Shown here in pieces: positions 3,001 through 50,692 of a DNA stretch of 64,000 bases. The DNA is from Naegleria gruberi. Lineage: Eukaryota. A program made the position numbers and the translations under genes. The notes below the pieces were generated by a model. The model was not told where the DNA came from. It made no database searches and saw only the letters and a list, made by a program, of their open reading frames with translations. The stretch lies in assembly GCA_000004985.1 (NCBI GenBank), contig GG738911.1; one strand, given 5' to 3'. How positions within the stretch are numbered: position 1 is the first letter of the stretch; each line of letters begins with the position of its first letter.

Positions 3001-6000
3001 ACCTGACCTTTTGTAAGAGAATACTCCTGCACTAACTTTCCATTCATAGGAAACCAAAGTTGAGCAATTTTTTCCACAACCTAAAAAGTATCTAATAGTA
3101 GTTGTGTTCAGAGTGATACTGTTAATAACAGTTGAAATGGTTTGATCTTGAGTACCTGAAACTAGAACAGATGGTAAACCAAAGCTTCCCAAAGTTGGCT
3201 CATTCAATTCATACTTGACTACTAATTTGAATTGTTGCAGGTTGGATTTTCTGCTTTGGAATGGTTGAATATTAGCAATGGATGCATTTGCAATGAAAGT
3301 GTAATTGCCTGCTTGAGTAACATCAGTTAATGTAGAGTTGATTAACAAACGATTGGATTCCACATAGAAAACCACATTTTGTCCATCACATTCAACACAT
3401 GACCAGGTGTAGGAAATATTTGGACTTTGGCTTAATACTTGATCTATTAATTGAATTTCCACACTGACAGTCTTGTTATCAAATTCCAAATAGACAACCT
3501 CTTCATATTTTGTAATGTTAATTTGGAATGGACTAATATTCACTGAACAATCCTTATTGGTGAATCCTTCAACACAAGAACAGTAATTTGGTGATACACA
3601 TTGTCCCTTTCCTGAGCAAACACTCGATTCGTTGAACAAGGTACCAAAGCAATTGTGCAATTCACATGTTTGGCCATAATATCCTGGTTGACATGTGCAG
3701 TTATCTGGAACAAAGCATGAACCATGACTTGAGCAAACGTTGGTATCATTAAAAAGAATTCCAAAGCAATTATGATTTGAACAATCAAATGAAAAATATC
3801 CTTCTTGGCATGAACAGTTATTTGGACTCAGACAAGTTCCATGTTTGAAACAAACATTTGAAGAATTCTTATGAACTCCAAAGCAATCATGTTCAGAACA
3901 TTCAGGTCCATAATACCCAGCTTCACAGAAGCAATTATTTGGAGATAAACATTGTCCATGAGTGGAACAAACATTAGAATTGTTAAATAAAGTGCCATAG
4001 CATTGGTGAGCTTCACACTGATATCCATAATATCCTGGTTGACATGTACAATTATTTGGAACTGGACATGAACCATGGCCACTACAAACATTCATTGTAT
4101 CATTGAATAAATGGCCATAACATTCATGGTTGGAACAATCAAATGAAAAATAACCGGTCTGACATGAACAATTATTTGGACTCTAACAAGTTCCATGCTG
4201 GAAGCACACATTCGAAGAATTCTTATGAACTCCAAAGCAATCATGTTCAGAACATTCAGCTCCATAATATCCAGCTTCACAGAAGCAATTATTTGGAGAT
4301 AAACATTGTCCATGAGTGGAACAAACACTTGAACTATTGAATAGAGTACCATAACAGTTGTGCAATTCACATGTTTGCCCATAATATCCAGCTTGACATG
4401 TGCAGATATTTGGTGAGTCACATGAACCGTGAGATGAGCAAGTACTACTATTTAAATGTTCCACTCCAAAGCAATTGTACAATCCACAATCAGATCCATA
4501 GAAAGGAACTAAACAACTACAATTATTATAGGCTGTACATGATCCTCGTCCTGAACAGACAGTTGAGGAATTCCTAGAAGCACCATAACAATCATAAATT
4601 TCACAATTCTATTTTCATCACATGTACAATTATTGAATGAATGACATTGACCGTGTGAGGAACAAATATTTGGATTGTTTGAGAGAACTCCATTACAAAT
4701 ATTAATTTCACAGAATTTGCCAGTATGTTGCTCATCACACTGACAAGTATCGAATGCTGTACAATTACCAAATCCAGTACACACATTTGTTTCATTTTTC
4801 AATATTCCACTACATTCGAATAATTCACAATCTTCTCCATAATAACCCTCTTGACAGGTACAATTTTCTGGTGAAGAACATGATCCATGTCCTGAACAAA
4901 CCATTGAAGAATTATTGATAATTCCATTACACATATAATTTTCACAATTATCTCCAAAGTATAACTCTGGACAAGTGCAATTATTCTTTGAATCACATGA
5001 TCCTACTCGAGAGCATACATTTGGTTGATCGAATCTAATTCCACCACAGTCATAGTACTGGCATTCAGATCCATATCTTCCTGCTTGACAATTACTACAT
5101 GTATTTGGTGAAGAACATGTTCCAAATCCACTGCAAACATTTGGATCACTTGGTGCAAGGCCATTACAATAATACAATTCACAAAATGTTCCTGAATATC
5201 CTGTTTGACATGAGCAAGTATTTGGACCAGTACATGTTCCACGACCATTGCAAACAGTACCAACTTGAGAATAGAGAATACTATTGCAATAGTAATTTGA
5301 ACACGTACTTCCTGAATATCCAGAATAGCATGAGCAACTATCTCGAGCATTACATGATCCATGTCCACTACAAGCACTCGATCCATATAATCCATAACAG
5401 AGATATTCATTACACTGAGAACCAGACCAAGTGTAGGTCAGTGAATTTCCAAAATACTGATTGGCTGTCCAGCAAACTTCCTTCTGGGCACCATAGAGTA
5501 CCAAATTACCATCTGATATTATCATTGATGATGTTGATGTTGATGGAATAAACAACTCACTCCATCATAACAATTCAATAGAAACTTACCTGATTGCATG
5601 ACTAATCTGAAAGGGGCTGTACCAGAGGTGCATGCAGAAGAAATTGTCTTTAAAACACCTCCCTGGTCTCGTATCTCAAGAGTGCCATCCAATGACAATA
5701 CTAAATTATACGGAGCTGTTCCTTGTCCATTAGTATCAGATGCCCAATAGGCAACCAATCCAGGTTTATAAAGCACCAAATTGCCATCCACTTGTTGTTT
5801 CAATTGGTAAATTCCATTCGATGAGTAAATAGAATTTGATTGATAGAGGTTGTTGGTTCCACCCGATGAATACAGAGTGTTACCACTTGTTGAATCCACA
5901 CAATAGCAATTATTTGACCCAGCACAGAAGCCATGTCCACCGCATGAGTTCAAATCTGTGGCCGAATAGCCATAACATGTATTGACAGCCAAAACTGAGA

Positions 6001-9489: not shown

Positions 9490-10443
9490 ATGAAAAAACA
9501 AATCATTGCAATCGCATTAATTCTCCTCTTGGCTTCAGTCTTTGTCTTGGCAGGTGACGTTGACAGTACAAGTGATAGCTCAGATTCTGTTGCTACCACC
9601 AAACCAGCAGAAATTCCAGTTGGTGAAAATTCTGAGAAGAAACAAGACGAAAGTTCTAAAAAGGAAAATCACAAGAGAGACGAAACTAATGGAAAAGACG
9701 ACTTTAAGGAAACCAAGTTTGATGAAGATAAGAAGAAGGATTCTGAAGAGAAGAAATCAGACGAAACTCATAAGAAATGCAAACTCGTTTGTGTTAAATT
9801 CAAGACTGAAAAGGGAAAGTGTTTGAAACACGAAATGAAAGATCAAGAAAAGGTTTGCATCAAACACAAGACAGAAGGTGAAGGTACATGTTTAGAATAC
9901 AAGCATTCCAAAAGTTGTGAAAAGTATTCGAAACCAACCAAGAAATGTATCAAGCACAAGAGCGAGAAAGTTTGTCAAAAGAAGAAAACTGAAAAGGTCT
10001 GCGATGAATATACCACCAAAAAAGTTTGTACTCGTCATGCTACTGAATGCGACCAATACACCACCAAGAAGAAATGCGAAACAGTTTCGTCCACAGATTC
10101 GTATTCCAAAAGTGGAAAATCTTGTAAGAATGTCAAAGTTTGTGCAAAGGAAAAGAAGGTCTGCAAGCACTACAAGAAGGAACAAGTTTGTAAGAAACAT
10201 AAGAAAGTTTCCAAATGTATCAAATTCAAGACTGAGAAGAAATGCATCAAGCACGAGCAAACCAAGAAGAAATGTTTAAAGTTTAAGAAATTGAAGAAAT
10301 GTATTAGAAAGTCAAAGGGAAAGAAGGTTTGCATCAAGCATAAACTTGTCGGTGGTAAGAAGGTCTGTAAGGAATATGAAAAGAAGAAAGTTTGTGAAAA
10401 GAAAGCTTGTGAAAAGAAGGAAGCAGATTCCTATTTAATGTAG
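9490..10443 (+). CDS. Secreted lysine- and cysteine-rich periodic-repeat protein: signal peptide, an acidic/K-rich stretch, then about 26 Cys spaced every 10-12 residues in K-rich units such as KKCIKHK and KVCxK.
   Basis: 317-aa ORF with ATG at 9490 and TAG stop. Leader MKKQIIAIALILLLASVFVLA. Regular Cys periodicity. No recognisable catalytic motif. Confidence 0.55.
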   Translation: MKKQIIAIALILLLASVFVLAGDVDSTSDSSDSVATTKPAEIPVGENSEKKQDESSKKENHKRDETNGKDDFKETKFDEDKKKDSEEKKSDETHKKCKLVCVKFKTEKGKCLKHEMKDQEKVCIKHKTEGEGTCLEYKHSKSCEKYSKPTKKCIKHKSEKVCQKKKTEKVCDEYTTKKVCTRHATECDQYTTKKKCETVSSTDSYSKSGKSCKNVKVCAKEKKVCKHYKKEQVCKKHKKVSKCIKFKTEKKCIKHEQTKKKCLKFKKLKKCIRKSKGKKVCIKHKLVGGKKVCKEYEKKKVCEKKACEKKEADSYLM

Positions 10444-10603: not shown

Positions 10604-12352
10604 TTATTCTAAATATCTAAATAAAAAATCCAATTCCAATAAACCTCTTCCAAAGCACATAATAATCAAGTCAGCAATCAAATATTTCTTCTTTCCAATT
10701 TCCACAACTTCGTCTCTAATATCATTAACAATAAGACTCAGAATAGATTCGCCTTCTTTTCTCATAGTGACAACTCTATACGATTCCACTAGCATTTGAG
10801 GATCAAGCTCTAAATTTTCCTTATCCATCAGACCTTTCTCCAACAATTGGCTGACGATAGAGTTTGCATTGAATGGCAACCATTTTTTGATTACTTCAAA
10901 AGATGAGGCAGTATGCCCTAAGGAGGTATGTTCAAATTTCAATCGGCATTCAAGGGAGCTTAGGAAATCAGAGAACTTGCACTTGAGAGAGCGATCAGGT
11001 TTTTGGAGCATTACGTGAACCGGAAAGTCAAATGCCAATTGACCATTCTTGCTCAATTCTGAGGGATCCAACAAGATATGGAAATCACCAAAAGAAAAAT
11101 ACTCTGCATATCTGCTTGCGCCCAAAGGTGGTTCCAATTGGAACAAACAATCTTGAGAATCATTATTGTTGAGAGCTTCTTTCAATGAGGAATTCATCTC
11201 GAATTTAGAAAAACTCTTCCATGCAATATGAGACAAATAATTGACCGTAATTGATTCGTACTCTCTTCTCTTGATAACATTGGGAAATCTAGCACCAAGG
11301 TCCTTCAATTGAGAATAAACCTTACGTGTTAGAGGTAGGTCAATTGAATGAGTTTCTAATACCAAGGAACAAACATAAATATCGTCTGAAGATATGTACA
11401 TAGTCTTTGAAACCTTGTCAAGAAACACATCTCCTGCTTTAAAGCAAATATCTCCAATCCAGATTTTCTTGATAATTGCATGAGTTGTCTTATCATAAAG
11501 AAACATATAGGTACTATCCCTCAAAACAAGATAATGATCCAATTCACCAACAAAACGCAACCAACACTGAAATTTGACTCGTTGTTCACAATTTGAGAAG
11601 TTTCTACCAGTGAATAATCTGAGCTCTGATGTTTTGTCCTCAGTTCTAGTATTAATCCACAATGCATCTCTATTAGAATCATAGGTTATAGAATATGTGT
11701 TTTCTAACCTCAAAGTATCAACAAAGTATTTGTGTTGTAAAGTACTTCCATCCAAAACATGAATCTGTCTATCATTCGAAAGAATGACTTCATTTCTGGG
11801 AAGTGAATATTCCAACAAATCAGCTTCCAGATTTGTAATTCCCAAATTCCTTCTTTGCAAAACGGTGAATTTCCCATTGGGATCGATTTTAGCCTTCACC
11901 AAGTCCTACACGATTAAATCATCTGGACTTTCGTCTGGAGGATTCTCCTGAACAATACACATTGGATAGAATGCAATAAGATCACCCAAATCACACCGAT
12001 GAATAAATTTCTTACTGTCCATGTCGAAGACATGCAGAAAACAATTCGAGTTTGGTCTATCACTACTTTCGGAAACTATTATCAATCGTTTCTTCATGTG
12101 GATTCTAAGGTCGAGGGTTGTCTCGATTTCTATTTGAAAAGTGTTCAGGTGAGATAGAAAAGCCTTCTCCAAGCATAGAAGAGTTGGAGTGGAAAGTTTC
12201 TTCTCCAACCATAAATGTGTGAAATGTTTCTCCAAGATTCCATCAATGAAAACTAAACGGACTGGTGCGTGAGAGTCAAGGCTTTTTTCAATGTTTCTGT
12301 ATTTAGCTTTAGGTTCGTAATCATTCACCTCAAAGATATGCTTTGTTTTCAT
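10604..12352 (-). pseudogene. Third tandem copy of the unknown-function paralog family. The reading frame is interrupted by a single in-frame TAG at 11906-11908 where the paralogs encode Tyr. It is either a nonsense-mutated copy or a base-call error.
   Basis: ORFs 11906..12352 and 10604..11902 are co-linear and in the same frame, separated only by TAG. The N-terminal half aligns with the N-terminus of 12577..14466 and 14500..16368 (EYEPK...RLVF(L/I)DGI(E/L)(K/N)H(Y/F)T...L(H/S)TPT(I/L)(T/L)CLE). The C-terminal half aligns with their C-terminal halves (DK(S/T)(S/T)H(M/A)(V/I)IKKI...YSIDKPL / YSIDLPL). Confidence 0.4.
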
Positions 12353-12576
12353 TTTTTTTGTATTCGAAACTAGCCTTTATTTCTGCCTCTTTCAGTTTCA
12401 CAATACGAATCACAAACAAGCCTTCGTTTTAAATTGAATGAGAAACTAACATGGCAGGATGTTCCGTTATGGAAACATGGAAATATTGGGATGAACTAAT
12501 CACACAACATTGATCACTAAACTTGCCTAATTGAATCGAATATAATCACTCCATAGTATGCACTAATAAATTCTTC

Positions 12577-14466
12577 CTAATCCTCGTAAATGTCATTGTG
12601 GAAACTAAATACTTCTTTTTCGATAGCCAATGCCAATAAATCCATTAATAAATATTCCTTATTATTAAAGATCACCACATTCTTCCTGAACTTTTTCAAA
12701 ACCTTTAGCAAGTCTCCAAAATTAGGTGACAATGTAATATTTCTATAAACGTCCAATAACTTTCCAGAATCGAGCTCAAGAGTTTGTGGATCAATTAATG
12801 AATTATTATTTAAAGATTTGTACATTTCTTGCAAGTTAAATTTGATCTCTTTTGTATAATAATCATTTTCAAGACCCACACTAACGCATGGTTTTAAAGT
12901 GTCCAGAAAATCTGATAATTTACATTTGACAGTGAACTCTTGTGGTACACAAAGATACACTGGGAAATCTGTCAAATTCTTTCCGTTTTGTTGCAAATCT
13001 GATTGCAATACTGCTAAATGGTAATCATCGGGACTAATTGAGTTTGCACCAATAATGTGAACTTGATCAATTGGCAAATAATCGGATAAATACTCTAAAT
13101 CTGGTTTGATATTTTGCAATGCAATAGTAAAATCTATAGATTTTAGCTCGTCAACTACTTGCTTAAGGTCACAATCCACAAACTCGGAAATTACTGAAAC
13201 ATCCTTAAACCCCTTAAATTCTACAAGTTGTTTAAATCCAAAGTTCATATTTGCTAGAAAGCTCACAACGTTTGGCACATTATTTTCCCTCACAATCACT
13301 TGGGGTAACTTTGCTCCAAGTCTTTCCAATTGCAAACATATTTCCTCACCCAAAGGTTTATCTATAGAGTAAGTGTCTAATTTCAATTCTAATTGATACA
13401 CTTGCTCCTTACCACATGAAAATATGGTTTTAGAAACTCTATCGTATGCGTAAGCCTCCATCAGTACATCATCTCCAATTTTTTTGATAACCATGTGACT
13501 GGATTTGTCAATTAGATACAGACCGTCCTCATATCTAAGGACATGAAACTTATCAAGCTCCATTTCAAACATTAATTCCACCATCCCAATACGATCATCT
13601 TGTTCTACAGAAAATAATATTTCACTCTTTGCAAAGGTTGGACCATAATATTTTCTCACATAATGCTCCGAACTATGGCCATTACCAAACACTAACAAAT
13701 AATCAGAATGGGGATAATAACGAACAACATATTGTGCGTCATCATCAATAAATGTATACTTGAACACCAAGCTATCTCCATCAAATACTAGAATTTTTCC
13801 AAAGTTCACAACCATTAACTCATTTCTAGGTCCAATAAATTCCAAATTTGCACAAGTAAAGCTATCTGCATCCATTACTGGTTCTACTTCTTTCATAATT
13901 GGGAACTTCTGATCTGGATCAAGTAGAATTTTCATCAAACAATAATCTTGCGAAATAGTATACAAGATTTCTTTCCCATCACCATTTTCTACAATGTGCA
14001 TTGCTATCACATTTCCATGGAAATGATTAATATCATATAGAACATTTCCACTCTCTAAACAAACAATAAGAATTGAAGCCTTGTTGTTGGCGGCAAGTAG
14101 CCACCTTTTGGTGGGATGTATTGTTATGGATGGTATGCCATAGTCTTCTTCCGATAATTTAAAGGTTTTAAGAGTGATGAGACTAGTCTCTTCCAAACAA
14201 GTTATTGTTGGAGTGTGGAGTTTCTCCCGAAGCATTGAATTCGTATAATGATTCTCCACTCCATCAAGAAATACCAATCTTGTGAGATTTTCAGAGTCAT
14301 CATTCTCTTCATCATGAAGGCTTTCAATTTTCTTCTTTTTTAATTTTGGTTCGTGTTCGCTGATAGTTTCTTCAAGAAGCCTTGATTTCATTTTTTTGTA
14401 AAATATTTCCATTCCATTTAGGTAATTAATGGATGTTAATGTTTGATTGATGGACCATTTAAACAA
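12577..14466 (-). CDS. Paralog family member of unknown function (629 aa).
   Basis: Full-length ORF, about 45% identical by eye to 14500..16368 along the whole length. Acidic N-terminus with a KKKK patch. No recognisable catalytic motifs. Confidence 0.6.
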   Translation of the reverse strand: MFKWSINQTLTSINYLNGMEIFYKKMKSRLLEETISEHEPKLKKKKIESLHDEENDDSENLTRLVFLDGVENHYTNSMLREKLHTPTITCLEETSLITLKTFKLSEEDYGIPSITIHPTKRWLLAANNKASILIVCLESGNVLYDINHFHGNVIAMHIVENGDGKEILYTISQDYCLMKILLDPDQKFPIMKEVEPVMDADSFTCANLEFIGPRNELMVVNFGKILVFDGDSLVFKYTFIDDDAQYVVRYYPHSDYLLVFGNGHSSEHYVRKYYGPTFAKSEILFSVEQDDRIGMVELMFEMELDKFHVLRYEDGLYLIDKSSHMVIKKIGDDVLMEAYAYDRVSKTIFSCGKEQVYQLELKLDTYSIDKPLGEEICLQLERLGAKLPQVIVRENNVPNVVSFLANMNFGFKQLVEFKGFKDVSVISEFVDCDLKQVVDELKSIDFTIALQNIKPDLEYLSDYLPIDQVHIIGANSISPDDYHLAVLQSDLQQNGKNLTDFPVYLCVPQEFTVKCKLSDFLDTLKPCVSVGLENDYYTKEIKFNLQEMYKSLNNNSLIDPQTLELDSGKLLDVYRNITLSPNFGDLLKVLKKFRKNVVIFNNKEYLLMDLLALAIEKEVFSFHNDIYED

Positions 14467-14499
14467 GCTTTACCAATTACTGTTAAATAATAAATTGAA

Positions 14500-16368
14500 C
14501 TATTCATCATTCTCAGAGTCATAAAAAGTTTCAGTTTGGAATTGTATCAATTCTCTTTTTCCACTAGCTTGTGCCATGACTAATAAATCTACCAATAAAT
14601 ATTCCGTCTTGTTGATTGTTACAATATGTTCCTTGAGTTCTTGATTAACCTGGAGCAAAGTACTAAACTGAGGTTTAGTTGCTACATTTCTGTAAGATTT
14701 TAATAATATGGTAGGGTTGAGCTCTAAAGAAATTTGAGAAATTAATGAATTATTCTTTAAAGCTTCGTACACTTCTTGCAACTTGAACTTGAACTCTTTG
14801 GTATCGTCATCCCTTTTAAGTTTCACACTAATGCATGGTTTTAGAGTGCCAAGGAAATCTGATAATTTACATTTAAATATATTCTTTTCTCGAATAACTA
14901 AGATTGGAAAATCTGTTAAATACTGTCCATTTTGATGCAAATCTGATAGTAATACTCCTATACAATACTTATCGCACCGAACTGAGTGACCACCAATAAG
15001 AAACACTTCGTCGTTTGGAAATTTGGTTGGAAAAAGGCCCTTTAAATCTTCCTGTACAATTGTTTTAAAACTAAAAGAGAAATCATAATGTACACCTCTA
15101 ACCTTGTCAAGTCTAACAGGCTTGTTTTCAATTATTTCATAATACTCAGAAATTAGTGATTGGTTCGCAACCCCTTCAAATTGAAGTTCAGCGAACGGCT
15201 TTGGTTCCGACCTCATTTGTTTCAAAAAGCTCACTGCATTTGGTGTATTGCTTTCCTTAACAATTACTCGAGGTAAATTTAATCCAAGTTTTTCCAATTT
15301 TAAACAAACATCCTCTTCCAAAGGTTTATCAATAGAGTAAGTGTCTAATTGTAATTCTAATTGATAGACTTTCCTCTCCCTAGTATATCCAAATATTGTT
15401 TTTGAAGCTCTATCGTAAGAATAGTTTTCTATCAGCAAATCAGTCTCAATTTTTTGGAGAAGTAAATGGTTTGATTTTTCGATAAGAAACAAGTCGTCTT
15501 CTACTCTCATTACGTAAAACTTATCAAGCTCCATTTCGAACAGTAATTCCGCAAGCCCAATACTATCATCCAGGTCAACGTACATTACCATTTCACTTTC
15601 TGAAAAGTTTGGTCCATAGTATTTCCTTAACACATGTTCCGGGTAATTATTAGAAAATACGAATAATTGATCATGAATTGGATTATAATGAGTGTAGTAT
15701 GTTCGATACAATTCACTTTCACTTGCAAACTTCGTCTTCACGAAAAATTCACCGTCAAATACTAATAATTGGTTTGTAAAACCCACAAATAACTCATTCC
15801 TAGATTCAATAAATTTCAAATCTGTAATATCACCAAACTGTAAGAATGATCTATGGTTCAAAATTGGTAAATCCCTCTCTGTATCAAGTTTGATTTTTAG
15901 TACTTCTCTATGGCTATACAAGAAGACAATATCATTATCCCCATGCTCACTCTCCACAATACACATTCCATAAACATCATTATCAATTTCTAATCTAAAA
16001 CTGTGCAATGTTACTCCACTCTCCAAACTGATAATTTTAAAACCAATATGATCAGAATCATCTTTTAAACAAGTAACAACAAGCAACCATTGCTTTTTTT
16101 GATGTATTTGAATGCATGATATTCCATCCGATATTTCAAATGTTCTACGAACAACAAGTTTAGCCCCCTCCAAACAAGTCATCGTGGATGGATTGCAAAG
16201 TTTCTTACAAAGCAATGAATTCATATAATGTTTCTCAATTCCATCAAGAAACACCAATCGGGTGCGATCGTCATCATTATTTAGATGATCTTCAATCTTC
16301 TTCTTTTTTAATTTTGGTTCATACTCGTATTGACCATCATTCATTTCCTCATCATTGTGTGATTTCAT
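14500..16368 (-). CDS. Paralog family member of unknown function (622 aa).
   Basis: Full-length ORF co-linear with 12577..14466. The three copies lie head-to-tail on the minus strand. Confidence 0.6.
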   Translation of the reverse strand: MKSHNDEEMNDGQYEYEPKLKKKKIEDHLNNDDDRTRLVFLDGIEKHYMNSLLCKKLCNPSTMTCLEGAKLVVRRTFEISDGISCIQIHQKKQWLLVVTCLKDDSDHIGFKIISLESGVTLHSFRLEIDNDVYGMCIVESEHGDNDIVFLYSHREVLKIKLDTERDLPILNHRSFLQFGDITDLKFIESRNELFVGFTNQLLVFDGEFFVKTKFASESELYRTYYTHYNPIHDQLFVFSNNYPEHVLRKYYGPNFSESEMVMYVDLDDSIGLAELLFEMELDKFYVMRVEDDLFLIEKSNHLLLQKIETDLLIENYSYDRASKTIFGYTRERKVYQLELQLDTYSIDKPLEEDVCLKLEKLGLNLPRVIVKESNTPNAVSFLKQMRSEPKPFAELQFEGVANQSLISEYYEIIENKPVRLDKVRGVHYDFSFSFKTIVQEDLKGLFPTKFPNDEVFLIGGHSVRCDKYCIGVLLSDLHQNGQYLTDFPILVIREKNIFKCKLSDFLGTLKPCISVKLKRDDDTKEFKFKLQEVYEALKNNSLISQISLELNPTILLKSYRNVATKPQFSTLLQVNQELKEHIVTINKTEYLLVDLLVMAQASGKRELIQFQTETFYDSENDE

Positions 16369-17292: not shown

Positions 17293-20200
17293 TTAATGTA
17301 AAGTTTCATCTTCTGGTTGAATTTCACTAGATACATCTTCACCAATGAAATTATCAGCATTTGCATTCAATTCTTCACTGGTCAAGACAGCAGATTCGTG
17401 ATGCTTTGCAGAGAGGAGGTAAGTTTGTGTCATTCCCTTGCCCTTAACTTCAATCATTCTCTCTTCGAATGAAAAGCCCAAGTCATATACTCTCTCATAG
17501 GTAGACCGAGAAACTTGAATTCTTCCTGGCTTGGAATTTGATTCCATTCGAGAGGCTGTATTGATTGAATCACCCCATAAATCATAGGCAAACTTCTTAC
17601 GTCCAATGACACCTGCTACAACTGGTCCAGTGTTGATACCAATTCTAATGTTAACTTGTTCTTCAAATCTTCCCTTTCTAAAGTTGGAATTGAAAGAACG
17701 AATCACTCCAAAGGTATCAATGGCAAACTTTAAGACTCTTTCAGGATGGTCTGATTGAGCATTCAAATCATGCAAACCACCTGCTGCAAAGTAAGCATCA
17801 CCAATTGTCTTGATCTTTTCCAAATGATAACGATCTGTCAAATCGTCAAAGCCCATAACAATTTGATTCAACATTTGAACCAATTCATTAGGAGCTAATT
17901 TTGAAGATAAACTAGTAAATCCAACCATATCTGAGAAAAAGCAAGTGATATCAGCAAATTTCTCGGCAATCAATGATGTGCCATTTTTAAGTTTTGCTGC
18001 CACTGCTCCTGGTAGAATGTTCAATAATAAAGTTTCAGAGTTTTTCTTCTCCTCAGCAAGGAGAGCATTATGCTATATTATTGTAAGGTTTTAAGATGAT
18101 TATTATAGAATAGAACATGTAAAAAAACTAATAAAAAGAAAACAAACCTTCTTTTCTGATGTAATATCCTTAATAAAGCATGTGATAATTGGTTTCTTCT
18201 CAAAGAGAGTTACAAAAATATTCATTTTGGCTGGGAATGTAGTTTGATTCTTTCTAATACATTCCACGTCAAAGGATTCACCCTTTGGATCAAATTCTGT
18301 GACAGTTTGTTTCATACTGTCTACAGCTTTTCTAATTTCATCATGATGTTGTGGACACAGGAGTGTAAACAGCAATTTACCAATTACATCTTCCTGTTGA
18401 TTTCCAAACATTCTTTGAGCTGCTGGATTGAAAATTTCAATATCACCACGATGGCTACACAAAATGACGCCATCAACAGCAGCATTTAAGATATTTCTAA
18501 CTTTGGCATCTTCTCCCCCAACATTTCTCTTCTTGACAAATAATCGAGATAGGGCACCATCGCTGAGAGAGTGATAAAGAGCATAATTTCTCAATTGTTC
18601 ATTATTTTCAAATGTTTCAATTGATAAATAATTGAATAAGGACCTTAGAGAAAAGACATTCTTCCAGTGTATCCTTAAAAAGTAGTACATAATTACACAA
18701 CCAATAAGGTTGACTGTAAATCCAACAATGGCCAAAGCTGTTATTTGAGTTACCATTGGAGTTGAGGATTTAACAGCAAAAATAAGTGAAAAGTCAATCA
18801 ACTTGAACGATGCAGTATTAGCCAAAAAAGCAACTGCATAAAATTCTTGCAAGATAACAAGCAAGTCTTGATAGTTGGAAGTTTTGGTTGTTGCAACCAA
18901 ATCTTCGATAATTCTTGAGGATTTGAGAATAGTATCCTGAACCATATAATCAATACCAAAATCACATTGTGTGTAATTGTCTGGTTTGTATCCTTTTGGA
19001 ATGACCATGGCATTGTATATTGAAGAGACAGATTCAATTGTACAATTCAAATCCCCACGAATCATGTGATCAGTTTCTGGAAACATACCGACAACTAGAG
19101 TTTCGTACGCCTTAACAGCAGAACCATACATACACAAATTCCAAAAGTATCTCAATTTGAAAACAACATAGTCAAAGTTAGTCCTTAGCACTTTGATATC
19201 AGATTCTGCGAGTATGGGTATTTCATCTAGTCCATAATTGTTCAACATATTTGTGGAAGAATGATAGAATTGTTCTGCAACATTGAAAGACAATCGTTGT
19301 AAGAATGCCATTGCATCAAAACCATCTTCCATGGTAATGTAAGATTCAAAACTGTACTTGGAATTTCCAAGAGTTTCTTTAAGGAAAATACCCAAACTGA
19401 CAGACACAGCAATCATTACAAAAATACCAATAATGATAAAGATATTCTTCGGTTTAAGAATGGAGGTCTTGGGAATATGAATAGAAACTTCATCACCAAC
19501 TTTCTTACCAAGATCATGGAAGAGTTTACCAACTTCATTCTTTGACACATGGGTGTGAATTAGTTTGATTTGCTGTTTCATTGTAGAGAGTTCAAATCTA
19601 CTATATAGCAGGTAAATTGTTGCATAAACCACATAGAACGCAAGAACAACAGATGTAAATATGGTAAAGGTGTCGTTAATTCTTAGGGCATCCTCCTTTG
19701 CAGAATCTGTAAAAACTCTGCAAAACTTTTGATAGGCATAAGTGATGGTTTCTTGATTTCTGTACATGAGCATAAACCCATAACTATTTAAACTATTCAT
19801 TAATTGGTCGTCTCCACTGTTAACCATTTGATCAGAAAGCTTTACAAGAACATTGGTAATATCAGTAATGGTCACATTTTCTGCCATGGTTTCGTTGTAA
19901 AACTTGGTTTCCATTGTTGCATCTGATTGCATTTTTGGAACATAGAAAGGATAGTAAAATTCATGGTAATGTGAGTAAACTGATGGATTGAATTTGGCAT
20001 CATAGGCCTTTTGTTGTAAATTAACCAAGATTTGTCTCAATTTTACAATGTTCTGTTTCAGCAATTTAGGGCTAAGGAACATTTCACTGGTCATTGTTTT
20101 TGGAATTGAAGAAGACGTGGAATTCATTAAATTTACAGTAGATTGATAGGCACGAACTGTTACCAACATATTTGACAATGCAGCTATTGGCGAACAAGCA

Positions 20201-22500
20201 TCAATCACGTTAATAACATTCAATGTAACGACATCTGAAAAGTTGAGGGCAATTACGATACCAGCAATTAAAAAGGCAAATCCCAACCCAGCAAATAAGA
20301 AAAAGATGGTCATTTGAATATTTCTTGGTGCTGGCACAGAAAGCGCATTTCTAAATACCATTTCTCTCTTTTGTTCGCCAGAAACAGTATTTTCAATACC
20401 GTTGAAATTGTCAAAACTATCCTCAATACTACTCATTGTTTCATAATTCATTTGTGAAAAGGATTGAGGGTTTTCTACGGTAAAATTGATAGCATTAACG
20501 GAGGCTTGAATCAACTTTCTAGAGTTATCAACTGTCTCAGCTGTTCCAACAGAATTAGAGTCTGGATGTACTCTATTCTTTCTTGCTAGTTTGGCTTTGA
20601 AAGCAGCACCTCTTTTTTGGAAGTTACCTTCATCTTCCTCAAGAGTCATTGCTTCATTAAAGTATTCACTGGCAAGGTCCTTATTAAACTTGATATTCTC
20701 CAAATAGTTAGCATACATTCTCAAGACAGTCTTGTCGTTATAGTAGAGCGATAGTAAGCTGTTGAACATGTTATCACACTCCTCAATGAGAACGGCATTA
20801 CGAGAAGCAATGCTTTCAATCTTTTCATAGTTCACTATCTCTTGCATTTGCTCCTTCCAAAAATGGCGATGGAGAGATGTAATCTCAAGCATGGATTTTT
20901 CAATCTTTGAAAAGGTAGCTTTAAGATCGATTGCATTCTTTTGTCCCCTTATTCCCTCAGTAGTAGAAGTTTCAACTTCTTTCAATCGTTGACCCAGTAA
21001 AAATCTCATGTACAAATTTGGTCGTTGCTTGATAGCCTTTTTAAGGAGAGCAAGTGCAAACGTGGACGCGTTCAATTCTTCTCCCATAAAGTAGGCAGCA
21101 ATGCATGCAGAGCTGTTCAAAATGTTTTGGTCACTGAAACCCTTCTGAGAGGAAATAGCCCTGATGAATGAAATGATAAACATCAAGTCTGCATTTTCTT
21201 CTTCATCCTTTAGCATTACTTCCACTCCCATTGTAAACCTCATGTACATGTCCATCTTGGAAAGGTTTCCATCGTCCTCAAGCTGTTGATAAATATTAAG
21301 GGCCTCTCTTTCAATGTTTTTATCTTGAATTGCTGTAATAAACTTCTTTCTCAGCTTTTTTACAATGATTCTTGAGTATATTTCTGCAATGACGCCTCCT
21401 AGAATTCCAAGAAGAACCACCAAAGCAAGAGTCATCATTGATAACCCCACACCCATAACATTATCATTGGTTGGATTAGCCAAACTTGTCACGAGACCAC
21501 CAATACTGGCACCAATACGAGCGCTTATTACCCCAGCCACTATTGAGTTCTCAAACCTTCTCATCATTGGGAAAATCTTGAATAGCAAGACTAATAATAT
21601 GAAGGAACACACCAGATGCACAATCGATCTAATGAATGCATAGTTGGCTGGTATTAAAAAGTGTACAAGCATGCCCAAAATGTTGCAAATAACTCCCAAA
21701 AGAGGAAGAATGGCACTATCTCCGATCATTGGGGTTGTGCTTAAGGGATGAGAATTTGGAAGCATGATTACAGTCAGTAACGCCTCAACTTGTAAGAGGA
21801 CAATGAATATTAAGGAGAGGGCCATCATGACAATGTTCCTCGTTTCAAAACATGTAACTGAATCAAATCTATTCAAATAGGATGTCGTAGTGGTCGTGGA
21901 GTTACTCAGCAGTGAACCAACAGCCACACTTGTAGATCCTTGTTGTTGCACCAAATTGTTGGTATTGTATCCATAGTCACAATCAACAAAGCTCGTGAAG
22001 ATGTAGGTCATTGGTGCAGAGAGAATAAGGAGAGCAAACAAGGAAATGTGAAACACATACTTCACATAGGGAATAAACTTGGAAGTGGATCTCACAGCTC
22101 TAATGGTGAGTGCAAAGGCTCCAAGAGCGAAAAGCACGAAAAACATTGAAATACTAGCAAGAGCAATGGCTCCATCATATGGAATAAGATCCAACGATAA
22201 ACTTGTTGTATAGTTCAATACTGTGAAAATCCAAGATCCCCAAACACCAAAGTTAAAGTGATGTGGACTCAGTAAGGGCATCCAAATAAAACTCCAAAAC
22301 AAGAGAATGTATAATGTAAGGGTCATGACAAATGTACGTGTTCCATGTCTTCTTGATGTGTTTTGTGCAGTGAATACAAAGGAAAGAAATTCAGTTCTAA
22401 CCTTGACTTGGAGAGAACTTGCCGACTCTGAGACAATGCTTTCAGAGTTTTGAGAACTATCCGAGCCAATAAAAGAGGCTCCAGCAATAGAACTTCTCAT
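17293..22500 (-). CDS. Class III adenylyl/guanylyl cyclase. N-terminal multi-TM block, TPR-like region, second TM-flanked sensor region, PAS domain, C-terminal cyclase catalytic domain. Two exons (22500-18148 and 18072-17293) with a 75-nt intron at about 18073-18147.
   Basis: ORF 18103..22500 ends in a PAS-like segment (...VDGVILCSHRGDIEIFNPAAQRMFG...). The donor AAG|GTTTGT and acceptor ATATAG|CAT join it in frame to HNALLAEEKKNSETLLLNILPGAVAAKL. The catalytic motifs follow: FSDMVGFT, KIKTIGDAYFAAGGL, WGDSINTASRMES. Confidence 0.8.
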
Positions 22501-22917: not shown

Positions 22918-25900
22918 TTATTGGTATTCTTCTTCTTCGACTTCAATATATTCAACCTCTTCACCTTCAGCAAGTGTGATTGGTTCTCCATTTTCGTCAA
23001 CATACTCATACTCGACTTGTTCTTCCACTTCTTCCTGTTGTTGTTGTTGCTGTTGTGGAGTGTTAGCCGTTGTTGTCGGTTTTTGTGTTGGTGAAGATAC
23101 CTCTGGTTTAATGTCGCTCTTCTTAATACTTGCTCTCGAGTTTCTGACATTTCTGGAATTTGGTGTTGAAGATCCTGATGAACCTGTATCGGAACTTTCA
23201 GTGGTGTTTGGACTAGTAGAAGCAATTGGAGCCAGTGGTTTCTTTGGATTGAACTCGACAGACATGTAATCTTGATCCAAGAAGAAGGTCTTGATAAAAT
23301 CAATGTTAGAAGTAGATTGGGCCTTGTGTCTTTGAATAATTTCATTAATGTGGCTTCTTCTGGTTGGGAATGGCTTTCTGTATTGCTTTTGCTTATATCT
23401 CACAGCCTTGTTAGCATTAATGGCAGTCATTCTCACCAGTGGTCCCAAGTTCTTCTTATCCACAATCATTCCATCAAGGAGAGGTCCGAAAAGTGGAACT
23501 TCTGGCTTTGTATAAATTCTTACCCTAAATAAATATGTTTCCTTATGTCTTTGATATGGATAAACACAGATGTGAACAAAGTTAAATTGAGAAGGAATTG
23601 TCCATGGTTTGTAATCTCTGTCGTGCTCGCTCCAAACAATGTGGACAAAATCGTTACCGACGTGACGTTTCTTTTGGATTTGTTGCGAGTCATTGACCTT
23701 AGTTGGCATTCTTGTAACATCGTGGAAAATCACCTCAGTTGTTGCGTTTGAGTAATATGGAGCAGTATTACCAGTAGTCAAATTTTCATCTAAACCTCCC
23801 ATAAAACCACCATGAGTTCTCATATCAGCATCCCAACCAAGAGATTGAACAAATTCCTTGTAGATTCTAGAGCCTGATGTTTCATCATTTTTCAAAATAT
23901 CCTTTTGGGCTTCTTGTTGATTGGCAACATAGATGAGACCAACCTTGATGGTTTCTCTTTCAGTTAACTTGTCGAGTTGTTTAAGAGATCTGTAGAATCT
24001 ACCGTTGGCATTTACCAAACTGAAAGAAGCTCTACTGGTACCAGAGAGGAAACCAATATTATTGAGGAGGGATCTAAATGCCTTATGTACAGATTTGGTT
24101 AAATTATCATTTTCATAATCTGGCTTCTTTGGAGCATGAGCTTCGTTGAAACCAAGTGCTGGTGTATCCTNNNNNNNNNNNNNNNNNNNNNNNNNNNNNN
24201 NNNNNNNNNNNNNNNNNNNNNNNNNNNNNNNNNNNNNNNNNNNNNNNNNNNNNNNNNNNNNNNNNNNNNNNNNNNNNNNNNNNNNNNNNNNNNNNNNNNN
24301 NNNNNNNNNNNNNNNNNNNNNNNNNNNNNNNNNNNNNNNNNNNNNNNNNNNNNNNNNNNNNNNNNNNNNNNNNNNNNNNNNNNNNCGGCACATTCTGGGA
24401 AAACTTGAGTAACATAGTGTTGCAAAACTTCAAGCATATCAGTCTTATCAGTATCAATTTCAATATCATAGTGAGGATAATCGAGTTCTTCAGCACCTTC
24501 ATCTCCAGCCATTTGGCTTTCTTGTTCTTCAACCTTGATGGCTTCTTCTTCTTCATGATTTTCTTCGTCATCATCAGAATCTTCCTTAGTTTCTTGTTGG
24601 GCAGTTACTGGAACCTTGATATCTGGTGTTTCGAATGATTCCTTATCTACCTTCAAACCACCTGTTTGGTCGATATCAGCTGGCAGATCAACTGCTGCCA
24701 AATCTTGTCTGACAATTGGTTCAGCACGAGGATCATCAGCATCAAACAATTCTTCGTCACCACGATTAACAATGCTTGATACATAGAATGAGGCTCTATC
24801 TTCTTCTGGAGAACCAGGGCTATCAAAACCAGCTTTGGAAGCTCTTGGAGCATTTGAATTCTTGGCACCAGACTTGGATTCATCATCTACCAATTCATCG
24901 AATTCCAAATGGTCAATTCTAACCATGTTATCCTTCTTGAAGGTCATTGTTTCTGGAGAGTAAACTTGCTTGAATTCCCAACAATATTTACCAGTCATGT
25001 CACGTAAAATTACAACACAAGATTCAGTCTTGTTTGGATTTTCCATAATTGTCAACAAGGTATAATTGTTGAAAACAAAGTGGTGAACCTTTGGAGAAGT
25101 TACATACAAGCCATTTTCTTCTTGCAAGACATCAAATTCGGAAATTTCAGTACTCATTCTAGCAGCACCAATAGGAGTTGGGAATTGACTGAAAACGTTC
25201 AAAGCATAACACAACAAGCTTTCGGCAGCAGTAGCAATTTCCAAAGCACTGTCTTCCTTGCTGAGTGTATAATTTTCGAAAGAATACATCTTGGCTCCTC
25301 TATCAGCTGAGTCTTCAGTGGCAGCTTCAGTTACAGTATCCTTTTGTGGAGTCAACAATACACTCAATGAAACAACAGATAAACCTCTATTGATAGCACT
25401 GAAAAGCATTGAGGCAACTTCCTTGCTTTCCAAAACCTTCATTGGAATGTATTGCAAAATTTCAACAATGGAATAGAACAAGTGTTTGAAAATGCTCCAT
25501 TGTGCCAAGGCAGAATCAGAATCCTTCAACTGAGAGGACAAGGCAGTACAGATGGTCAACAAGAATGTACGAATGGTTGGAACACCTAACTTGGTGAATA
25601 AACCTAAATGAGCCAATGTAACTACAGCATCGTGAGCAGCACAGGCAACATCAGCATTCTTGTCAACAAAGAACTTGATGAACATTTCAACAATTTGTCT
25701 GGATGGATTAGATCTTCCGTTAACTCCTTCAAGTTGGAGCTCATTGTGGAGAATAGCATAGAGACCCCAAATACACTTGATTTGAACATCAACAAATCTG
25801 TCATCTTGAACACAAGATTGAAGTGTTTGAACAATACGACCTCTGAGTTTGGTGAAGGTGGTTACAGTTTCTGGGTTCAAATTTTCCAACTTGGCTTGTT

Positions 25901-33173: not shown

Positions 33174-34226
33174 ATGATGTACTTTGGAAAGAGAAAATTA
33201 CACTCCTATCTAACAACGAAGACAATAACAGGCACACGATCCGAGGCTTTTCAGATTGAAACTCTCAATCAATTGTCCAATCATTCGCAAGGCTTTCATT
33301 TCCTTGATCGATTTCCTACAGAGAGGAGATGTATCTATCCTCATCAATTTAATGATCAATCCTCGGAATGGCATTGTATGGAGAGTGTTGATGCATTGGA
33401 GAAGATAAACTCTAAATTAATTCCCAAATATTTAAATATTGTAACGTTTAATGTTTGGTTTGCTCCCTTGATGATGAAGGAAAGAATGGAGGGAATAATG
33501 CAAATGCTAATGGCGAGAGAGGAATTACCTGATGTGATGTGCTTTCAGGAGGTAACTGATGAGGCATTGGAATTCATTGCTTCTCATGAATTGATAAGAA
33601 AGGAGTATTATTTGTCTGATTCTCCCAATGATTATTATACAACTGTGGATCCGTATGGAGTGTTGATGGCTGTGAGGAAGGGATTGCCTGTGAGGAGAAT
33701 GTTTTATAATACATTGCCTTCTAGAATGTATAGAGCTTGTTTGTCGGTTGAGTTGAATGATGGAAAGGAGAGTTTTTGTATATCAACAGTTCATTTGGAA
33801 AGTTTGGCCTCTACTGATATGAGATTCAAACAATTGGATGTTATTAGTGAATTTCAACAAGCATTTGATAATGCTGTACTGTGTGGTGATTTTAATTTTG
33901 ATTCTGAGAGGAATTATGATGAAGATTATCTTCCCTACCTTGAAAATGATTATTTGAATAATGAAAATTGGAAGAGCTACACTGATATCTGGAAGGAGTT
34001 GAAATATCCATCTAATGAGCTTGGAAAAACCTTCGATACCTCAGTTAATACAATGCTTAAAGGTCAAAAAGAAGAGTTGATGAGATATGACAGAGTTATG
34101 CTCAAATCCAAATCTTGGAAACCAACATTTGTTGAACTATTGGGGACTAGTCCAATTCAGACGAATCCAGATATTTTCCTATCAGACCACTTTGGAATTT
34201 GTACAAGAATCGAAAAAAGTGATTAG
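33174..34226 (+). CDS. TDP2: Tyrosyl-DNA phosphodiesterase 2 (TDP2)-like endonuclease/exonuclease/phosphatase-fold protein.
   Basis: EEP motifs in TDP2 order: VMCFQEV, TVHLES, LCGDFNFD, RYDRVM, LSDHFGI. The human TDP2 counterparts are LQEV, SHLES, GDTN, RFDRI, SDHWGL. Confidence 0.65.
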   Translation: MMYFGKRKLHSYLTTKTITGTRSEAFQIETLNQLSNHSQGFHFLDRFPTERRCIYPHQFNDQSSEWHCMESVDALEKINSKLIPKYLNIVTFNVWFAPLMMKERMEGIMQMLMAREELPDVMCFQEVTDEALEFIASHELIRKEYYLSDSPNDYYTTVDPYGVLMAVRKGLPVRRMFYNTLPSRMYRACLSVELNDGKESFCISTVHLESLASTDMRFKQLDVISEFQQAFDNAVLCGDFNFDSERNYDEDYLPYLENDYLNNENWKSYTDIWKELKYPSNELGKTFDTSVNTMLKGQKEELMRYDRVMLKSKSWKPTFVELLGTSPIQTNPDIFLSDHFGICTRIEKSD

Positions 34227-46700: not shown

Positions 46701-47812
46701 ATACATCTGTGGAAGTGACAATTACCATATCTCCATTTGGGAATATATAAGTGTTGGTTACTATACCAATATACTTCCTCTTCGGTGAGTTTTCTATTTG
46801 TAATTTGGAATAACTCCCCAAAACAGTTTTGACCAATCCATTAGAAACCTTTCTGACAATACTACTGGTTTCTATGAAAAATAGTTCATTCTTGAACGAA
46901 AACGGGTAAGAAAGTGAAGATGTTGGACTTGTTTCGAATTGTTGAATATTTTCTCCATATGGATGATTGATGACTCCTCCAGAAAATGTGGAAACCACCT
47001 TGGTTCTTGTATCAATTTTTCTAATACAGTTATTTGTCTGGTCAACTAGGTAAACTATAGAATTTTTCAAAACCAAAGAGGAGGGGTTATAAAATAGAAC
47101 TTTCGAGTAAGAATCAATCAGATCATCTCCTTCATATCCATAGAGGTCTTGCTGTCCAATGAAAGTTGATTGTACTGCTGATCCAACAGATTTCATTTGA
47201 ACAAAATGCGAAGAAGGTGAAGTTGTCCAAATTTCATTTGATGATGTTACAAATATTCCATATCTTGATAATTAATGGAGTGAATAAACTGTTTAAAATC
47301 TTCACTTACAAATTTGATTGAGGACTCAAACCGTCAACAACTCTGTACTTTCCATTGCTATCAATACGTTTCACCCTTTCCTCATCTGTGAAATAAACCG
47401 TATCCTCTTTGCCATTGGAAACAACGTGAATATTCTTTGGAGATTTCATAATGACTGAATTGGCATCCACATTATCATAACTTCCATCCAAATATGCTTT
47501 TTCACCGCCAATAGTCGAAAGTACCCTTGTTGAAATGTCATACTTTTTGATGAGGTTGTTTTGTGTATCTGCAATGTAAAGAATATTATTCGAAGAAACA
47601 ACAATTCCCAATGGTTTGTTAAATGTAGCAGAGATGGAAGAAACTAGTCCTGTTGAAGCAGAAACTATTCTAATCTTATTGTTTTGAGTATCAGCTATAT
47701 ACAAATCACCGTTTGGAGAAACACTAAGAGATGAAGGAGTATTAAATAGAGTTTCTTTTGCATGATATCCATCACTGAAACCAGCTGTTCCCAATCCTCC
47801 AAAAACTACCAT
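43723..47812 (-). CDS. Receptor protein kinase, about 1400 aa: roughly 12 NHL repeats, 3 EGF-like repeats, one TM helix (VLIVSITIPIVASFLILVIIVIVVIVIIV) and a Ser/Thr kinase domain. At least five exons: 47812 to about 47312, about 47265-46205, about 46150-44230, 44185-44048 and 44005-43723. Introns of about 46, 49-61, 44 and 42 nt. The 5' end and signal peptide are unresolved.
   Basis: Kinase motifs are split across exons: ...LSIIH|RDIKPSNIF...IADFGLAK...GTPLFMS|PEIALG...DIFSLGVSIYQ. NHL signatures LYIADTQNNKIRIV and IVYLVDQTNNCIRKID. Donors GTAAGT and GTACGT. The ORF-track pieces 47306..47812, 46189..47196, 44148..45992 and 43723..43953 are its exons. Confidence 0.6.
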
Positions 47813-48276: not shown

Positions 48277-48312
48277 CCACCAATCATTATTACCACAAAC
48301 CATTAAAAACAA

Positions 48313-50019: not shown

Positions 50020-50026
50020 TAATTTA

Positions 50027-50608: not shown

Positions 50609-50692
50609 ATAAAGCTTCATTATTTTATGTTTTTATTAAATAATCAATTAACAAAAGTAATTTAGAAGAACTAAACAAAACCTATTTATAGC

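What the first reader, a model, noticed from the sequence alone, without database searches (positions are those of the whole stretch)
10604..16368. Head-to-tail triplication of an unknown-function gene family, third copy with a TAC/TAT-to-TAG nonsense
Three co-linear paralogs of about 620 aa sit consecutively on the minus strand and share signature blocks (EYEPK..KKKKIE, RLVFLDGI..HYTNS, YSIDKPL, NTPNAVSFL). I recognise no domain. Copy 3 is split only by a single TAG at 11906-11908 at a position where the other copies encode Tyr. TAG is used as a genuine stop elsewhere in the window (9490..10443, 33174..34226), so this is a nonsense mutation or an error, not a reassigned codon.
Basis: seen in the sequence. 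Interest (0 to 1): 0.5.

Follow-up and report, generated by a model that had tools for sequence, protein, structure and literature searches.

The report
Tandem propeller-protein genes, one broken
Three neighbouring Naegleria gruberi genes belong to a small amoeba-specific family of beta-propeller proteins, and the third is broken in this reference strain by a 15-base deletion whose junction spells a stop codon; this is ordinary gene-family turnover.

Summary
The window is Naegleria gruberi NEG-M. The three head-to-tail paralogs on the minus strand are real: 622, 604 and 582 codons, with one in-frame TAG in copy 3.

The stop is not a TAC/TAT-to-TAG substitution. A 98-99% identical Naegleria contig from an ENA metagenome carries an intact 583-codon copy 3. 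There the sequence reads GTG TA[T TTC CTC ACT ACA AG]G GAC (V-YFLTTR-D). The window lacks those 15 bases, so TA and G fuse into TAG. Five other family members have residues at this place, so the deletion is the derived state in the NEG-M lineage. It also removes part of a predicted core beta-strand.

TAG ends copies 1 and 2 themselves, so it is not a reassigned codon.

The family is not domain-less. Residues about 62-347 fold as a WD40-like beta-propeller, followed by a roughly 260-residue alpha/beta module that no library recognises. A resemblance to SUKH (Smi1/Knr4) domains was tested and is not significant.

The family has at least nine divergent members, all in N. gruberi, plus one environmental relative. 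None was found in other organisms.

Verdict: a lineage-specific gene family with one recently inactivated, probably polymorphic copy. Interest is low.

The parts
14500..16368 (-). Copy 1: intact 622-aa gene, identical to XP_002670864.1 / NAEGRDRAFT_74137 'predicted protein'. It ends in TAG.
   Evidence: ORF. Exact match in the protein collection. A 98%-identical ortholog lies on ENA contig L001.
16291..16320 (-). N-terminal basic patch EPKLKKKKIE in copy 1. It looks like a nuclear localisation signal; this is inference from sequence only. The patch is also present in copy 2, P0008 and P0012, and is degenerate in copy 3 (EPKAKYRNIE).
   Evidence: Translation. Family alignment.
15328..16185 (-). 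Copy 1 residues 62-347: WD40-like beta-propeller of 24-25 predicted strands, i.e. six or seven blades.
14539..15321 (-). Copy 1 residues 350-610: family-specific C-terminal alpha/beta module. It carries the most conserved motifs: PL..E.CL.LEKLG.KLP, IG, DFP, KCKLSDFL..LK and Y...DL..LA.
   Evidence: Model pLDDT 70-90. Invariant columns P349, L350 and P366. No hit in Pfam, NCBIfam or PDB sequences.
12577..14391 (-). Copy 2: intact 604-aa gene, identical to the NCBI N. gruberi predicted protein P0002. It ends in TAG.
   Evidence: The ortholog on L002 differs at only 3 of 1485 nt.
10604..12352 (-). Copy 3: a full-length paralog frame of 582 sense codons, interrupted by one TAG. NCBI annotates only a truncated 265-aa model (XP_002670862.1, NAEGRDRAFT_74135) that starts at the Met at 11401.
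11906..11908 (-). In-frame TAG created at the junction of a 15-bp deletion, which lies between 11907 and 11906. The intact allele reads GTGTA[TTTCCTCACTACAAG]GGAC, encoding V-YFLTTR-D.
   Evidence: DNA alignment of the window with L002. Intact 583-aa protein P0013. Only the window's copy 3 has the gap among six family members.
11909..12352 (-). Predicted truncated product of copy 3 in this strain: 148 aa, covering the N-terminal tail plus about one and a half propeller blades.
   Evidence: Blade positions are taken by homology to the copy 1 model.
11185..11196 (-). Second difference between the two strains in copy 3: 12 bp (encoding NSSL) present in the window and absent from L002. Its length is a multiple of three.

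Best explanation
The region holds three members of a small, fast-diverging gene family that so far appears confined to Naegleria gruberi.

Each protein has four parts:
- a short N-terminal tail with a lysine-rich patch that resembles a nuclear localisation signal;
- a WD40-like beta-propeller of six or seven blades;
- a strongly conserved linker (LELxLETxxIxxPL);
- a C-terminal alpha/beta module of about 260 residues that no library recognises.

By inference from the fold, these are non-enzymatic scaffold or adaptor proteins. The propeller and the C-terminal module would each hold a partner protein. The paralogs would differ in which partner they bind.

The tandem array arose by old duplications. 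Copies 1 and 2 are the younger pair.

In the sequenced strain NEG-M, copy 3 carries a 15-bp deletion that starts at the third base of a Tyr codon. It joins TA to G and so creates an in-frame TAG. It also removes YFLTTR, which is half of a predicted core strand of blade 2.

Translation therefore ends after 148 residues, and the allele is null. A near-identical strain still has the intact 583-codon gene. The rest of the frame carries no other defect. The loss is therefore very recent and probably still polymorphic.

Shown here: the paralogy, the deletion and its direction, the propeller fold, and the narrow distribution. Inferred: adaptor function, nuclear localisation, and loss of function.
For: - Organism and gene identity: exact matches to N. 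gruberi proteins on a 261,328-bp scaffold.
- Paralogy.
- Deletion: P0013 is 583 aa and reads ...DDLIVYFLTTRDLVKAKID..., where the window reads ...DDLIV*DLVKAKID.... At the nucleotide level the window has ATCGTGTA|GGACTTG and L002 has ATCGTGTA TTTCCTCACTACAAG GGACTTG, with 98.1% identity over 3.6 kb.
- Direction of the change: five other family members have residues in the gapped columns.
- Structural cost: the deleted residues align with F149-R154 of copy 1, and the model places strand 145-151 there.
- TAG as a normal stop: copies 1 and 2 end in TAG.
- Recency: no other stop or frameshift in 582 codons. Amino-acid differences between the strains show no asymmetry when polarised with the paralogs, 5 against 7.
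- Family size and distribution. No relatives in JGI metagenomes.
Against: - The deletion rests on one reference assembly and one metagenome contig. No reads could be examined, so an assembly error or a heterozygous site in NEG-M is not excluded.
- pN/pS between the strains is about 0.56 for copy 3 and 0.59 for copy 1. Copy 3 therefore shows no measurable relaxation of constraint, though the counts are tiny.
- The functional reading (adaptor, nuclear) has no experimental or contextual support. Neighbouring genes are unrelated.
- The C-terminal module has no detectable relative.
- No expression data were available for any copy.
Confidence: 0.8

Rival explanations
1. One reading: a single-base nonsense substitution (TAC/TAT to TAG) in copy 3.
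For: The ancestral codon at the junction is indeed TAT (Tyr) in the intact allele.
Against: The window lacks 15 consecutive bases relative to the intact allele. The G of the TAG comes from an AGG codon five codons downstream. A substitution would leave the FLTTR codons in place, and they are absent.
Confidence: 0.02
2. Assembly or sequencing artefact, or one haplotype of a heterozygous site: NEG-M cells actually carry, or also carry, the intact 15 bases.
For: No read data were available. Naegleria strains show heterozygosity and variable ploidy (PMC9928731). The rest of the frame is undamaged, and constraint between the strains is like that on copy 1.
Against: A clean 15-bp gap with no homopolymer or repeat at its edges is not a typical base-calling or assembly error. 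The same gene has a second indel between the strains, of 12 bp, so small indels do segregate here.
Confidence: 0.12
3. The 15 bases are an insertion in the metagenome strain, and the TAG-bearing form is ancestral.
For: Two sequences alone cannot give the direction of an indel.
Against: Copy 1, copy 2, P0005 and P0006 all have residues in those columns, and the intact copy 3 aligns to copy 1 there without gaps (IVFLYSHREVLKIKLD against IVYFLTTRDLVKAKID). An insertion that exactly repaired a stop and restored a strand is very unlikely.
Confidence: 0.02
4. The TAG is bypassed, either by a small intron that removes it or by stop-codon read-through, so that copy 3 still makes a near-full-length protein.
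For: In-frame GT...AG pairs that span the TAG exist. The shortest is 48 nt, at 11906-11953. The neighbouring cyclase gene does contain a short intron.
Against: The homologous stretch is plain coding sequence in the intact allele and in all paralogs. The candidate donor sites are poor (GTTCAG, GTAGGA). Any such product would still lack a propeller strand. TAG terminates copies 1 and 2.
Confidence: 0.03

Closest known systems
WD40-repeat / beta-propeller scaffold proteins (e.g. WDR92, PDB 3i2n; PLRG1, 7dh6; G-beta; coatomer beta')
   Different: Sequence identity is 6-13%. No individual member reaches a Pfam WD40 threshold. Classical GH...WD dipeptide repeats are not evident. The blade number is uncertain (six or seven). 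The propeller is fused to a C-terminal module not seen with WD40 proteins in the libraries searched.
SUKH superfamily (Smi1/Knr4, YobK, Syd, FBXO3), partner-binding and immunity domains (Zhang, Iyer and Aravind 2011, PMC3113570)
   Same: The C-terminal module begins with LEKLGxKLP...(F/Y)L, has a central IG, and ends with SDFLxxL. This echoes the SUKH pattern (E..LG..LP..Y..FL ... G ... sF.eFL). The predicted order of elements, H-H-S-S-H-S-S-S-S-H, matches the published description of four helices, a hairpin and a four-strand meander. SUKH genes also form divergent tandem arrays.
   Different: No Pfam SMI1_KNR4/SUKH hit appears for any member or for the consensus, even at E up to 10. Profile-profile alignment to 3d5p/2prv/8bd1 is co-linear but scores only 13.4 (E 0.18). 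The reversed alignment scores 12.4, and 18 of 150 block shuffles reach the observed score. The module is also about 100 residues longer than a SUKH domain.
Young, polymorphic pseudogenes (null alleles) in lineage-specific tandem gene families
   Same: One copy of a fast-diverging tandem family is disabled by a single small lesion. The frame is otherwise intact, and a functional allele exists in a close relative.
   Different: The stop arises from an out-of-phase deletion whose length is a multiple of three, so there is no frameshift. That is why it looks like a point nonsense mutation. Fixation or frequency in the species is unknown.

Membership tests
WD40-like beta-propeller fold | Closed toroid of six to eight four-stranded antiparallel blades | tested here: met
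WD40 repeat family (sequence level) | Match to curated WD40 profiles above their thresholds | tested here: inconclusive
   Individual members: no hit, or only weak ones. Family consensus: ANAPC4_WD40 29.2 bits (cut-off 22.9), NUP159/214 propeller 29.3 (cut-off 29.6), CDC20 WD40 E 2.4e-7 but far below its cut-off. A bacterial WD40 protein matches the family profile at E 1.6e-5.
SUKH (Smi1/Knr4) superfamily | Significant sequence or profile similarity to SUKH members | tested here: not met
   No Pfam hit at E up to 10. No PDB sequence hit. hhalign score 13.4, E 0.18, not separable from the reversed and block-shuffled controls.
SUKH (Smi1/Knr4) superfamily | Fold: four helices, a two-strand hairpin and a four-strand meander with a cleft between them | not testable with these tools
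   The order of predicted elements is compatible. The C-terminal module could not be submitted alone, and full-length fold searches are swamped by propeller hits.
Pseudogene / null allele | A disabling lesion in a frame whose homologs are intact | tested here: met
   In-frame TAG at 11906-11908 after 148 codons. The intact ortholog has 583 aa. The deletion also removes part of a core strand.
Pseudogene / null allele | The lesion is real in the organism and no functional product is made | not testable with these tools
   No reads, transcripts or proteomics were available. Neither ORF fragment of the NEG-M allele appears in any other assembly of the collection.
Stop-codon reassignment | The codon occurs in-frame in many genes and is not used as a terminator | tested here: not met
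   TAG ends 5 of 22 long ORFs in the window, including copies 1 and 2. Copy 3 holds the only in-frame TAG of the three genes.
Spliceosomal intron containing the stop | Non-coding insert bounded by GT...AG and absent from homologous coding sequences | tested here: not met
   Sequence on both sides of the TAG is homologous to paralog coding sequence. The intact allele reads straight through. Only poor, arbitrary GT...AG pairs exist.

The most novel reading that the evidence does not exclude
The unrecognised C-terminal module may be a highly diverged SUKH-like (or otherwise new) partner-capture domain fused to a propeller. The family would then be a Naegleria-specific, rapidly diversifying set of adaptors engaged in some conflict or self/non-self process, with presence or absence of working copies varying between strains. 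That would be a eukaryotic counterpart of bacterial poly-immunity arrays.
Probability: 0.12. Interest if true: 0.45.

Novelty: new member of a known kind. Interest (0 to 1): 0.17.

Why it matters
- **Annotation.** NAEGRDRAFT_74135 is deposited as a 265-aa 'predicted protein', but it is the tail of a 583-codon gene that is disabled in the reference strain. NAEGRDRAFT_74137, the copy 2 gene, 64956, 52051, 72515, 74123, 74118 and 55043 can now be described as one family: a beta-propeller plus a conserved C-terminal module.
- **Method.** An in-frame stop that looks like a point nonsense mutation can be the scar of a deletion whose length is a multiple of three. One close relative was enough to show this.
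- **Biology.** This is one example of the large pool of species-specific genes of unknown function, prone to gain and loss, already reported for Naegleria (PMC9928731). It opens no new question on its own.

Tried and rejected
- **Pfam on the three copies and on ten family members:** nothing significant.
- **PDB sequence searches with profiles of the whole protein and of the C-terminal module:** nothing, apart from a chance ELP1 hit at E 0.7.
- **NCBIfam on the C-terminal module:** nothing.
- **Word-indexed homolog search with copy 3 (X at the stop):** returned nothing, although P0004 and P0013 exist. This was a tool miss. The exhaustive profile search and the cluster look-up found them.
- **Word-indexed search with the ten-member alignment:** added nothing.
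- **First structure model from five near-redundant rows:** poor, pLDDT 48.8. The ten-member alignment gave a usable model.
- **SUKH hypothesis:** tested by hhalign with shuffled and reversed controls and found not significant.
- **JGI metagenomes:** no match to the deletion junction or to the intact junction, and no family relatives.
- **Literature:** no paper mentions any of the locus tags or the metagenome project.
- **Relaxed constraint on copy 3:** pN/pS and polarised substitutions were uninformative because the counts are small.
- **Intron, read-through, codon reassignment and insertion in the other strain:** considered and rejected, as set out under the rival explanations.
Full report
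**What the sequence is.** The window is eukaryotic.
- Copy 1 (14500-16368, minus strand) is identical to Naegleria gruberi XP_002670864.1 (NAEGRDRAFT_74137).
- Copy 2 (12577-14391) is identical to another N. gruberi 'predicted protein'.
- Both lie on a 261,328-bp scaffold of strain NEG-M.
- The surrounding genes are typical Naegleria genes. They include a PAS-adenylate cyclase with a short intron, a RapGAP, EGF/NHL receptor kinases, a tubulin and a DDRGK protein.

**The observation.** ORF listing and translation confirm three co-linear genes on the minus strand: 622, 604 and 582 codons.
- Copy 3 (10604-12352) is interrupted only by TAG at 11906-11908.
- tblastn aligns each copy with the other two over the full length. 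For copy 3 the alignment runs through the stop. Copies 1 and 2 share 45% identity (E 1e-140). Copy 3 shares 28% with either (E 1e-41 to 1e-48).
- At 34% GC a random frame has a stop every 14 codons or so, so both halves of copy 3 are true coding frames.
- No further copy lies in the window.
- TAG terminates 5 of 22 long ORFs here, including copies 1 and 2, so a reassigned codon is excluded.

**What the TAG really is.** An exhaustive profile search of 1.84 billion representative proteins, followed by a cluster look-up, gave two results.
- NCBI annotates only the last 265 residues of copy 3 (XP_002670862.1, NAEGRDRAFT_74135).
- The same 90% cluster holds a 583-aa protein, P0013, from an ENA metagenome (ERZ929261).

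The contig carrying P0013 (L002, 3618 bp) also carries the end of copy 2. It is 98.1% identical in DNA to the window. A second contig from the same sample (L001) carries copy 1 at 99.1% identity, plus the start of copy 2. This is therefore a close relative of NEG-M with the same gene order.

P0013 reads ...PDDLIVYFLTTRDLVKAKIDPNGKF..., where the window reads ...PDDLIV*DLVKAKIDPNGKF.... In DNA the window has ATCGTGTA|GGACTTG and L002 has ATCGTGTA-TTTCCTCACTACAAG-GGACTTG. Fifteen bases are missing from the window. The gap begins at the third base of a TAT (Tyr) codon and ends after the second base of an AGG (Arg) codon, so TA and G are joined into TAG. The reading frame downstream is unchanged. 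This is why the lesion looks like a simple nonsense mutation.

**Direction of the change.** In an alignment of this stretch from six family members, only the window's copy 3 has the five-column gap. The intact copy 3 aligns to copy 1 without gaps (IVYFLTTRDLVKAKID against IVFLYSHREVLKIKLD). The deletion is therefore derived in the NEG-M lineage. In the structural model of copy 1 the equivalent residues (F149-R154) are the end of strand 145-151 and the following turn in the second blade. Even read-through would thus give a damaged propeller.

**Age of the lesion.** The lesion is young.
- There is no other stop or frameshift.
- pN/pS between the two strains is about 0.56 for copy 3 (20 non-synonymous, 9 synonymous differences), against 0.59 for copy 1 (12 and 5) and 0.12 for copy 2 (1 and 2).
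- When the amino-acid differences are polarised with the paralogs, neither strain carries clearly more derived states (5 against 7).
- These counts are too small to show or to exclude relaxed constraint.

**Alternatives for the stop.**
- An intron is excluded because both flanks are homologous to coding sequence and the intact allele reads through. The GT...AG pairs that could formally restore the frame are arbitrary and have poor donor sites.
- I could not examine reads. An assembly artefact, or heterozygosity in NEG-M, remains the main rival, at about 0.1.
- Nothing at the deletion edges (no repeat, no homopolymer) suggests an artefact.
- A second difference, a 12-bp in-frame indel at 11185-11196, shows that small indels do separate these strains.

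**What the family is.** The profile search found eleven proteins at E up to 0.001. One was a bacterial WD40 protein and one (P0011) an environmental sequence; P0001 was the metagenome strain's counterpart of copy 1; the other eight are N. gruberi NEG-M proteins.
- These include copy 2 (P0002) and copy 3's truncated annotated model, NAEGRDRAFT_74135 (P0004).
- NAEGRDRAFT_64956, 52051, 72515 and 55043 lie elsewhere in the genome.
- NAEGRDRAFT_74123 and 74118 lie on the same scaffold but outside the window.
- One further protein (P0011) comes from a different metagenome contig, which has 38% GC and eukaryote-like neighbours.
- The only other hit is a bacterial NB-ARC/WD40 protein that matches one blade repeatedly (E 1.6e-5).
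- Nothing from N. fowleri, N. lovaniensis or any other organism appeared, and JGI metagenomes gave no relatives.
- Members share 20-48% identity. A neighbour-joining tree puts copies 1 and 2 together (99% bootstrap). It leaves the order of copy 3 and 64956 unresolved, and separates a second subfamily of 72515, 74123 and 74118. The 'triplication' is thus at least two old duplications of different age.

**Fold.**
- With only near-identical rows the AlphaFold2 model was poor, at pLDDT 48.8. With ten family members it reached pLDDT 71.9 and pTM 0.66.
- Residues 62-347 form 24-25 strands, i.e. a propeller of six or seven blades.
- At sequence level, the consensus of the N-terminal half hits many Pfam WD40 families. 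ANAPC4_WD40 is above its threshold.
- Residues 350-610 form an alpha/beta module with good confidence. It holds the most conserved motifs of the family, including the invariant P349, L350 and P366.
- That module has no match in Pfam, NCBIfam or PDB sequences.
- The N-terminal 60 residues are predicted to be disordered. They carry EPKLKKKKIE, which resembles a classical nuclear localisation signal. This last point is my inference only.

**The SUKH lead.** The C-terminal motifs (LEKLGxKLP...FL, IG, SDFLxxL) and the predicted order of helices and strands recalled SUKH (Smi1/Knr4) domains. Those domains are described as four helices, a hairpin and a four-strand meander (PMC3113570).
- I retrieved three solved SUKH sequences (3d5p, 2prv, 8bd1), built a small profile from them, and compared it with the family's C-terminal alignment.
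- The alignment is co-linear and in the expected register. It scores only 13.4 (E 0.18). The reversed family alignment scores 12.4, and 18 of 150 block-shuffled versions reach the observed score.
- Membership is therefore not supported by sequence.
- The fold-level test could not be run, because the module cannot be submitted on its own.

**Mechanism, with its limits.**
- Shown: the paralogy, the deletion-derived stop, the propeller fold, and the narrow distribution.
- Inferred: these are non-catalytic adaptors. The propeller and the C-terminal module each bind partners, possibly in the nucleus, and the paralogs have diverged in partner choice.
- Inferred: the NEG-M copy 3 allele yields only a 148-residue fragment (the tail plus about one and a half blades) and is non-functional.
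- The deposited 265-aa gene model is an artefact of annotating the remaining open frame.

**Verdict.** This is a real but ordinary feature. It is a lineage-specific gene family of the kind that abounds in Naegleria (PMC9928731), with one recently disabled copy. Its mechanism for the stop is wrong, and its 'no domain' statement is superseded.

Noticed in passing
window 48100-51600: An AT-rich island (24.5-27% GC, against about 34% elsewhere). It holds a 568-aa ORF with no recognised domain (48313-50019) and a Ulp1/C48 cysteine-protease ORF (50027-50608; Pfam E 7.5e-11). Tandem repeats lie near both ends, at 48132-48273 and 51411-51597. The island sits between NHL-repeat gene fragments at 47306-47812 and 51679-51993. 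It looks like a mobile-element or foreign insertion.
   Followed up: partly
window 10604-11401 (minus strand): The deposited gene model NAEGRDRAFT_74135 (XP_002670862.1, 265 aa) is only the C-terminal remnant of copy 3, starting from an internal Met. The 148-codon N-terminal ORF (11906-12352) is not annotated as a protein in the collection.
   Followed up: yes
window 17293-22500 (minus strand): A large multi-pass membrane protein with TmcB-type TPR, PAS and adenylate/guanylate cyclase domains. The reading frame breaks between 18103 and 18024, which implies a short intron of about 78 nt at 18025-18102.
   Followed up: no
window 9490-10443 (plus strand): A 317-aa ORF with a signal-peptide-like start and a very Lys- and Cys-rich body of repeated K-K-x-C-x-K-H-K units. 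It has no Pfam match and ends in TAG. It lies directly downstream of copy 3, convergent with it.
   Followed up: no
window 11185-11196: A 12-bp in-frame indel (NSSL) separates NEG-M from the metagenome strain within copy 3. Copy 3 differs at about 1.7% of bases between the strains. Copy 1 differs at 0.9%, and the sequenced part of copy 2 at 0.2%.
   Followed up: partly
window 22918-27731 (minus strand): Overlapping ORFs encode a RALGAPB N-terminal domain and a Rap/Ran-GAP domain. This is probably one gene split by an intron or a frame change near 24099-24393.
   Followed up: no
window 3641-4432: A 354-bp tandem repeat of 2.2 copies at 80% identity, next to an EGF-repeat ORF at 4509-5525. It is probably a set of repeated EGF-encoding exons.
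   Followed up: no
tool behaviour: The word-indexed homolog search with copy 3 (X at the stop) returned no hit, although a 100% identical 265-aa protein and a 95% identical 583-aa protein are in the same collection. Only the exhaustive representative search and the cluster look-up revealed them.
   Followed up: yes
L003 (ENA ERZ27315067 contig, 4567 bp), gene 568-2172: The only family member found outside N. gruberi NEG-M and its close strain. It is a 534-aa protein on a 38% GC contig, next to a protein kinase and an Hsp70-like fragment. It presumably comes from another heterolobosean amoeba.
   Followed up: partly
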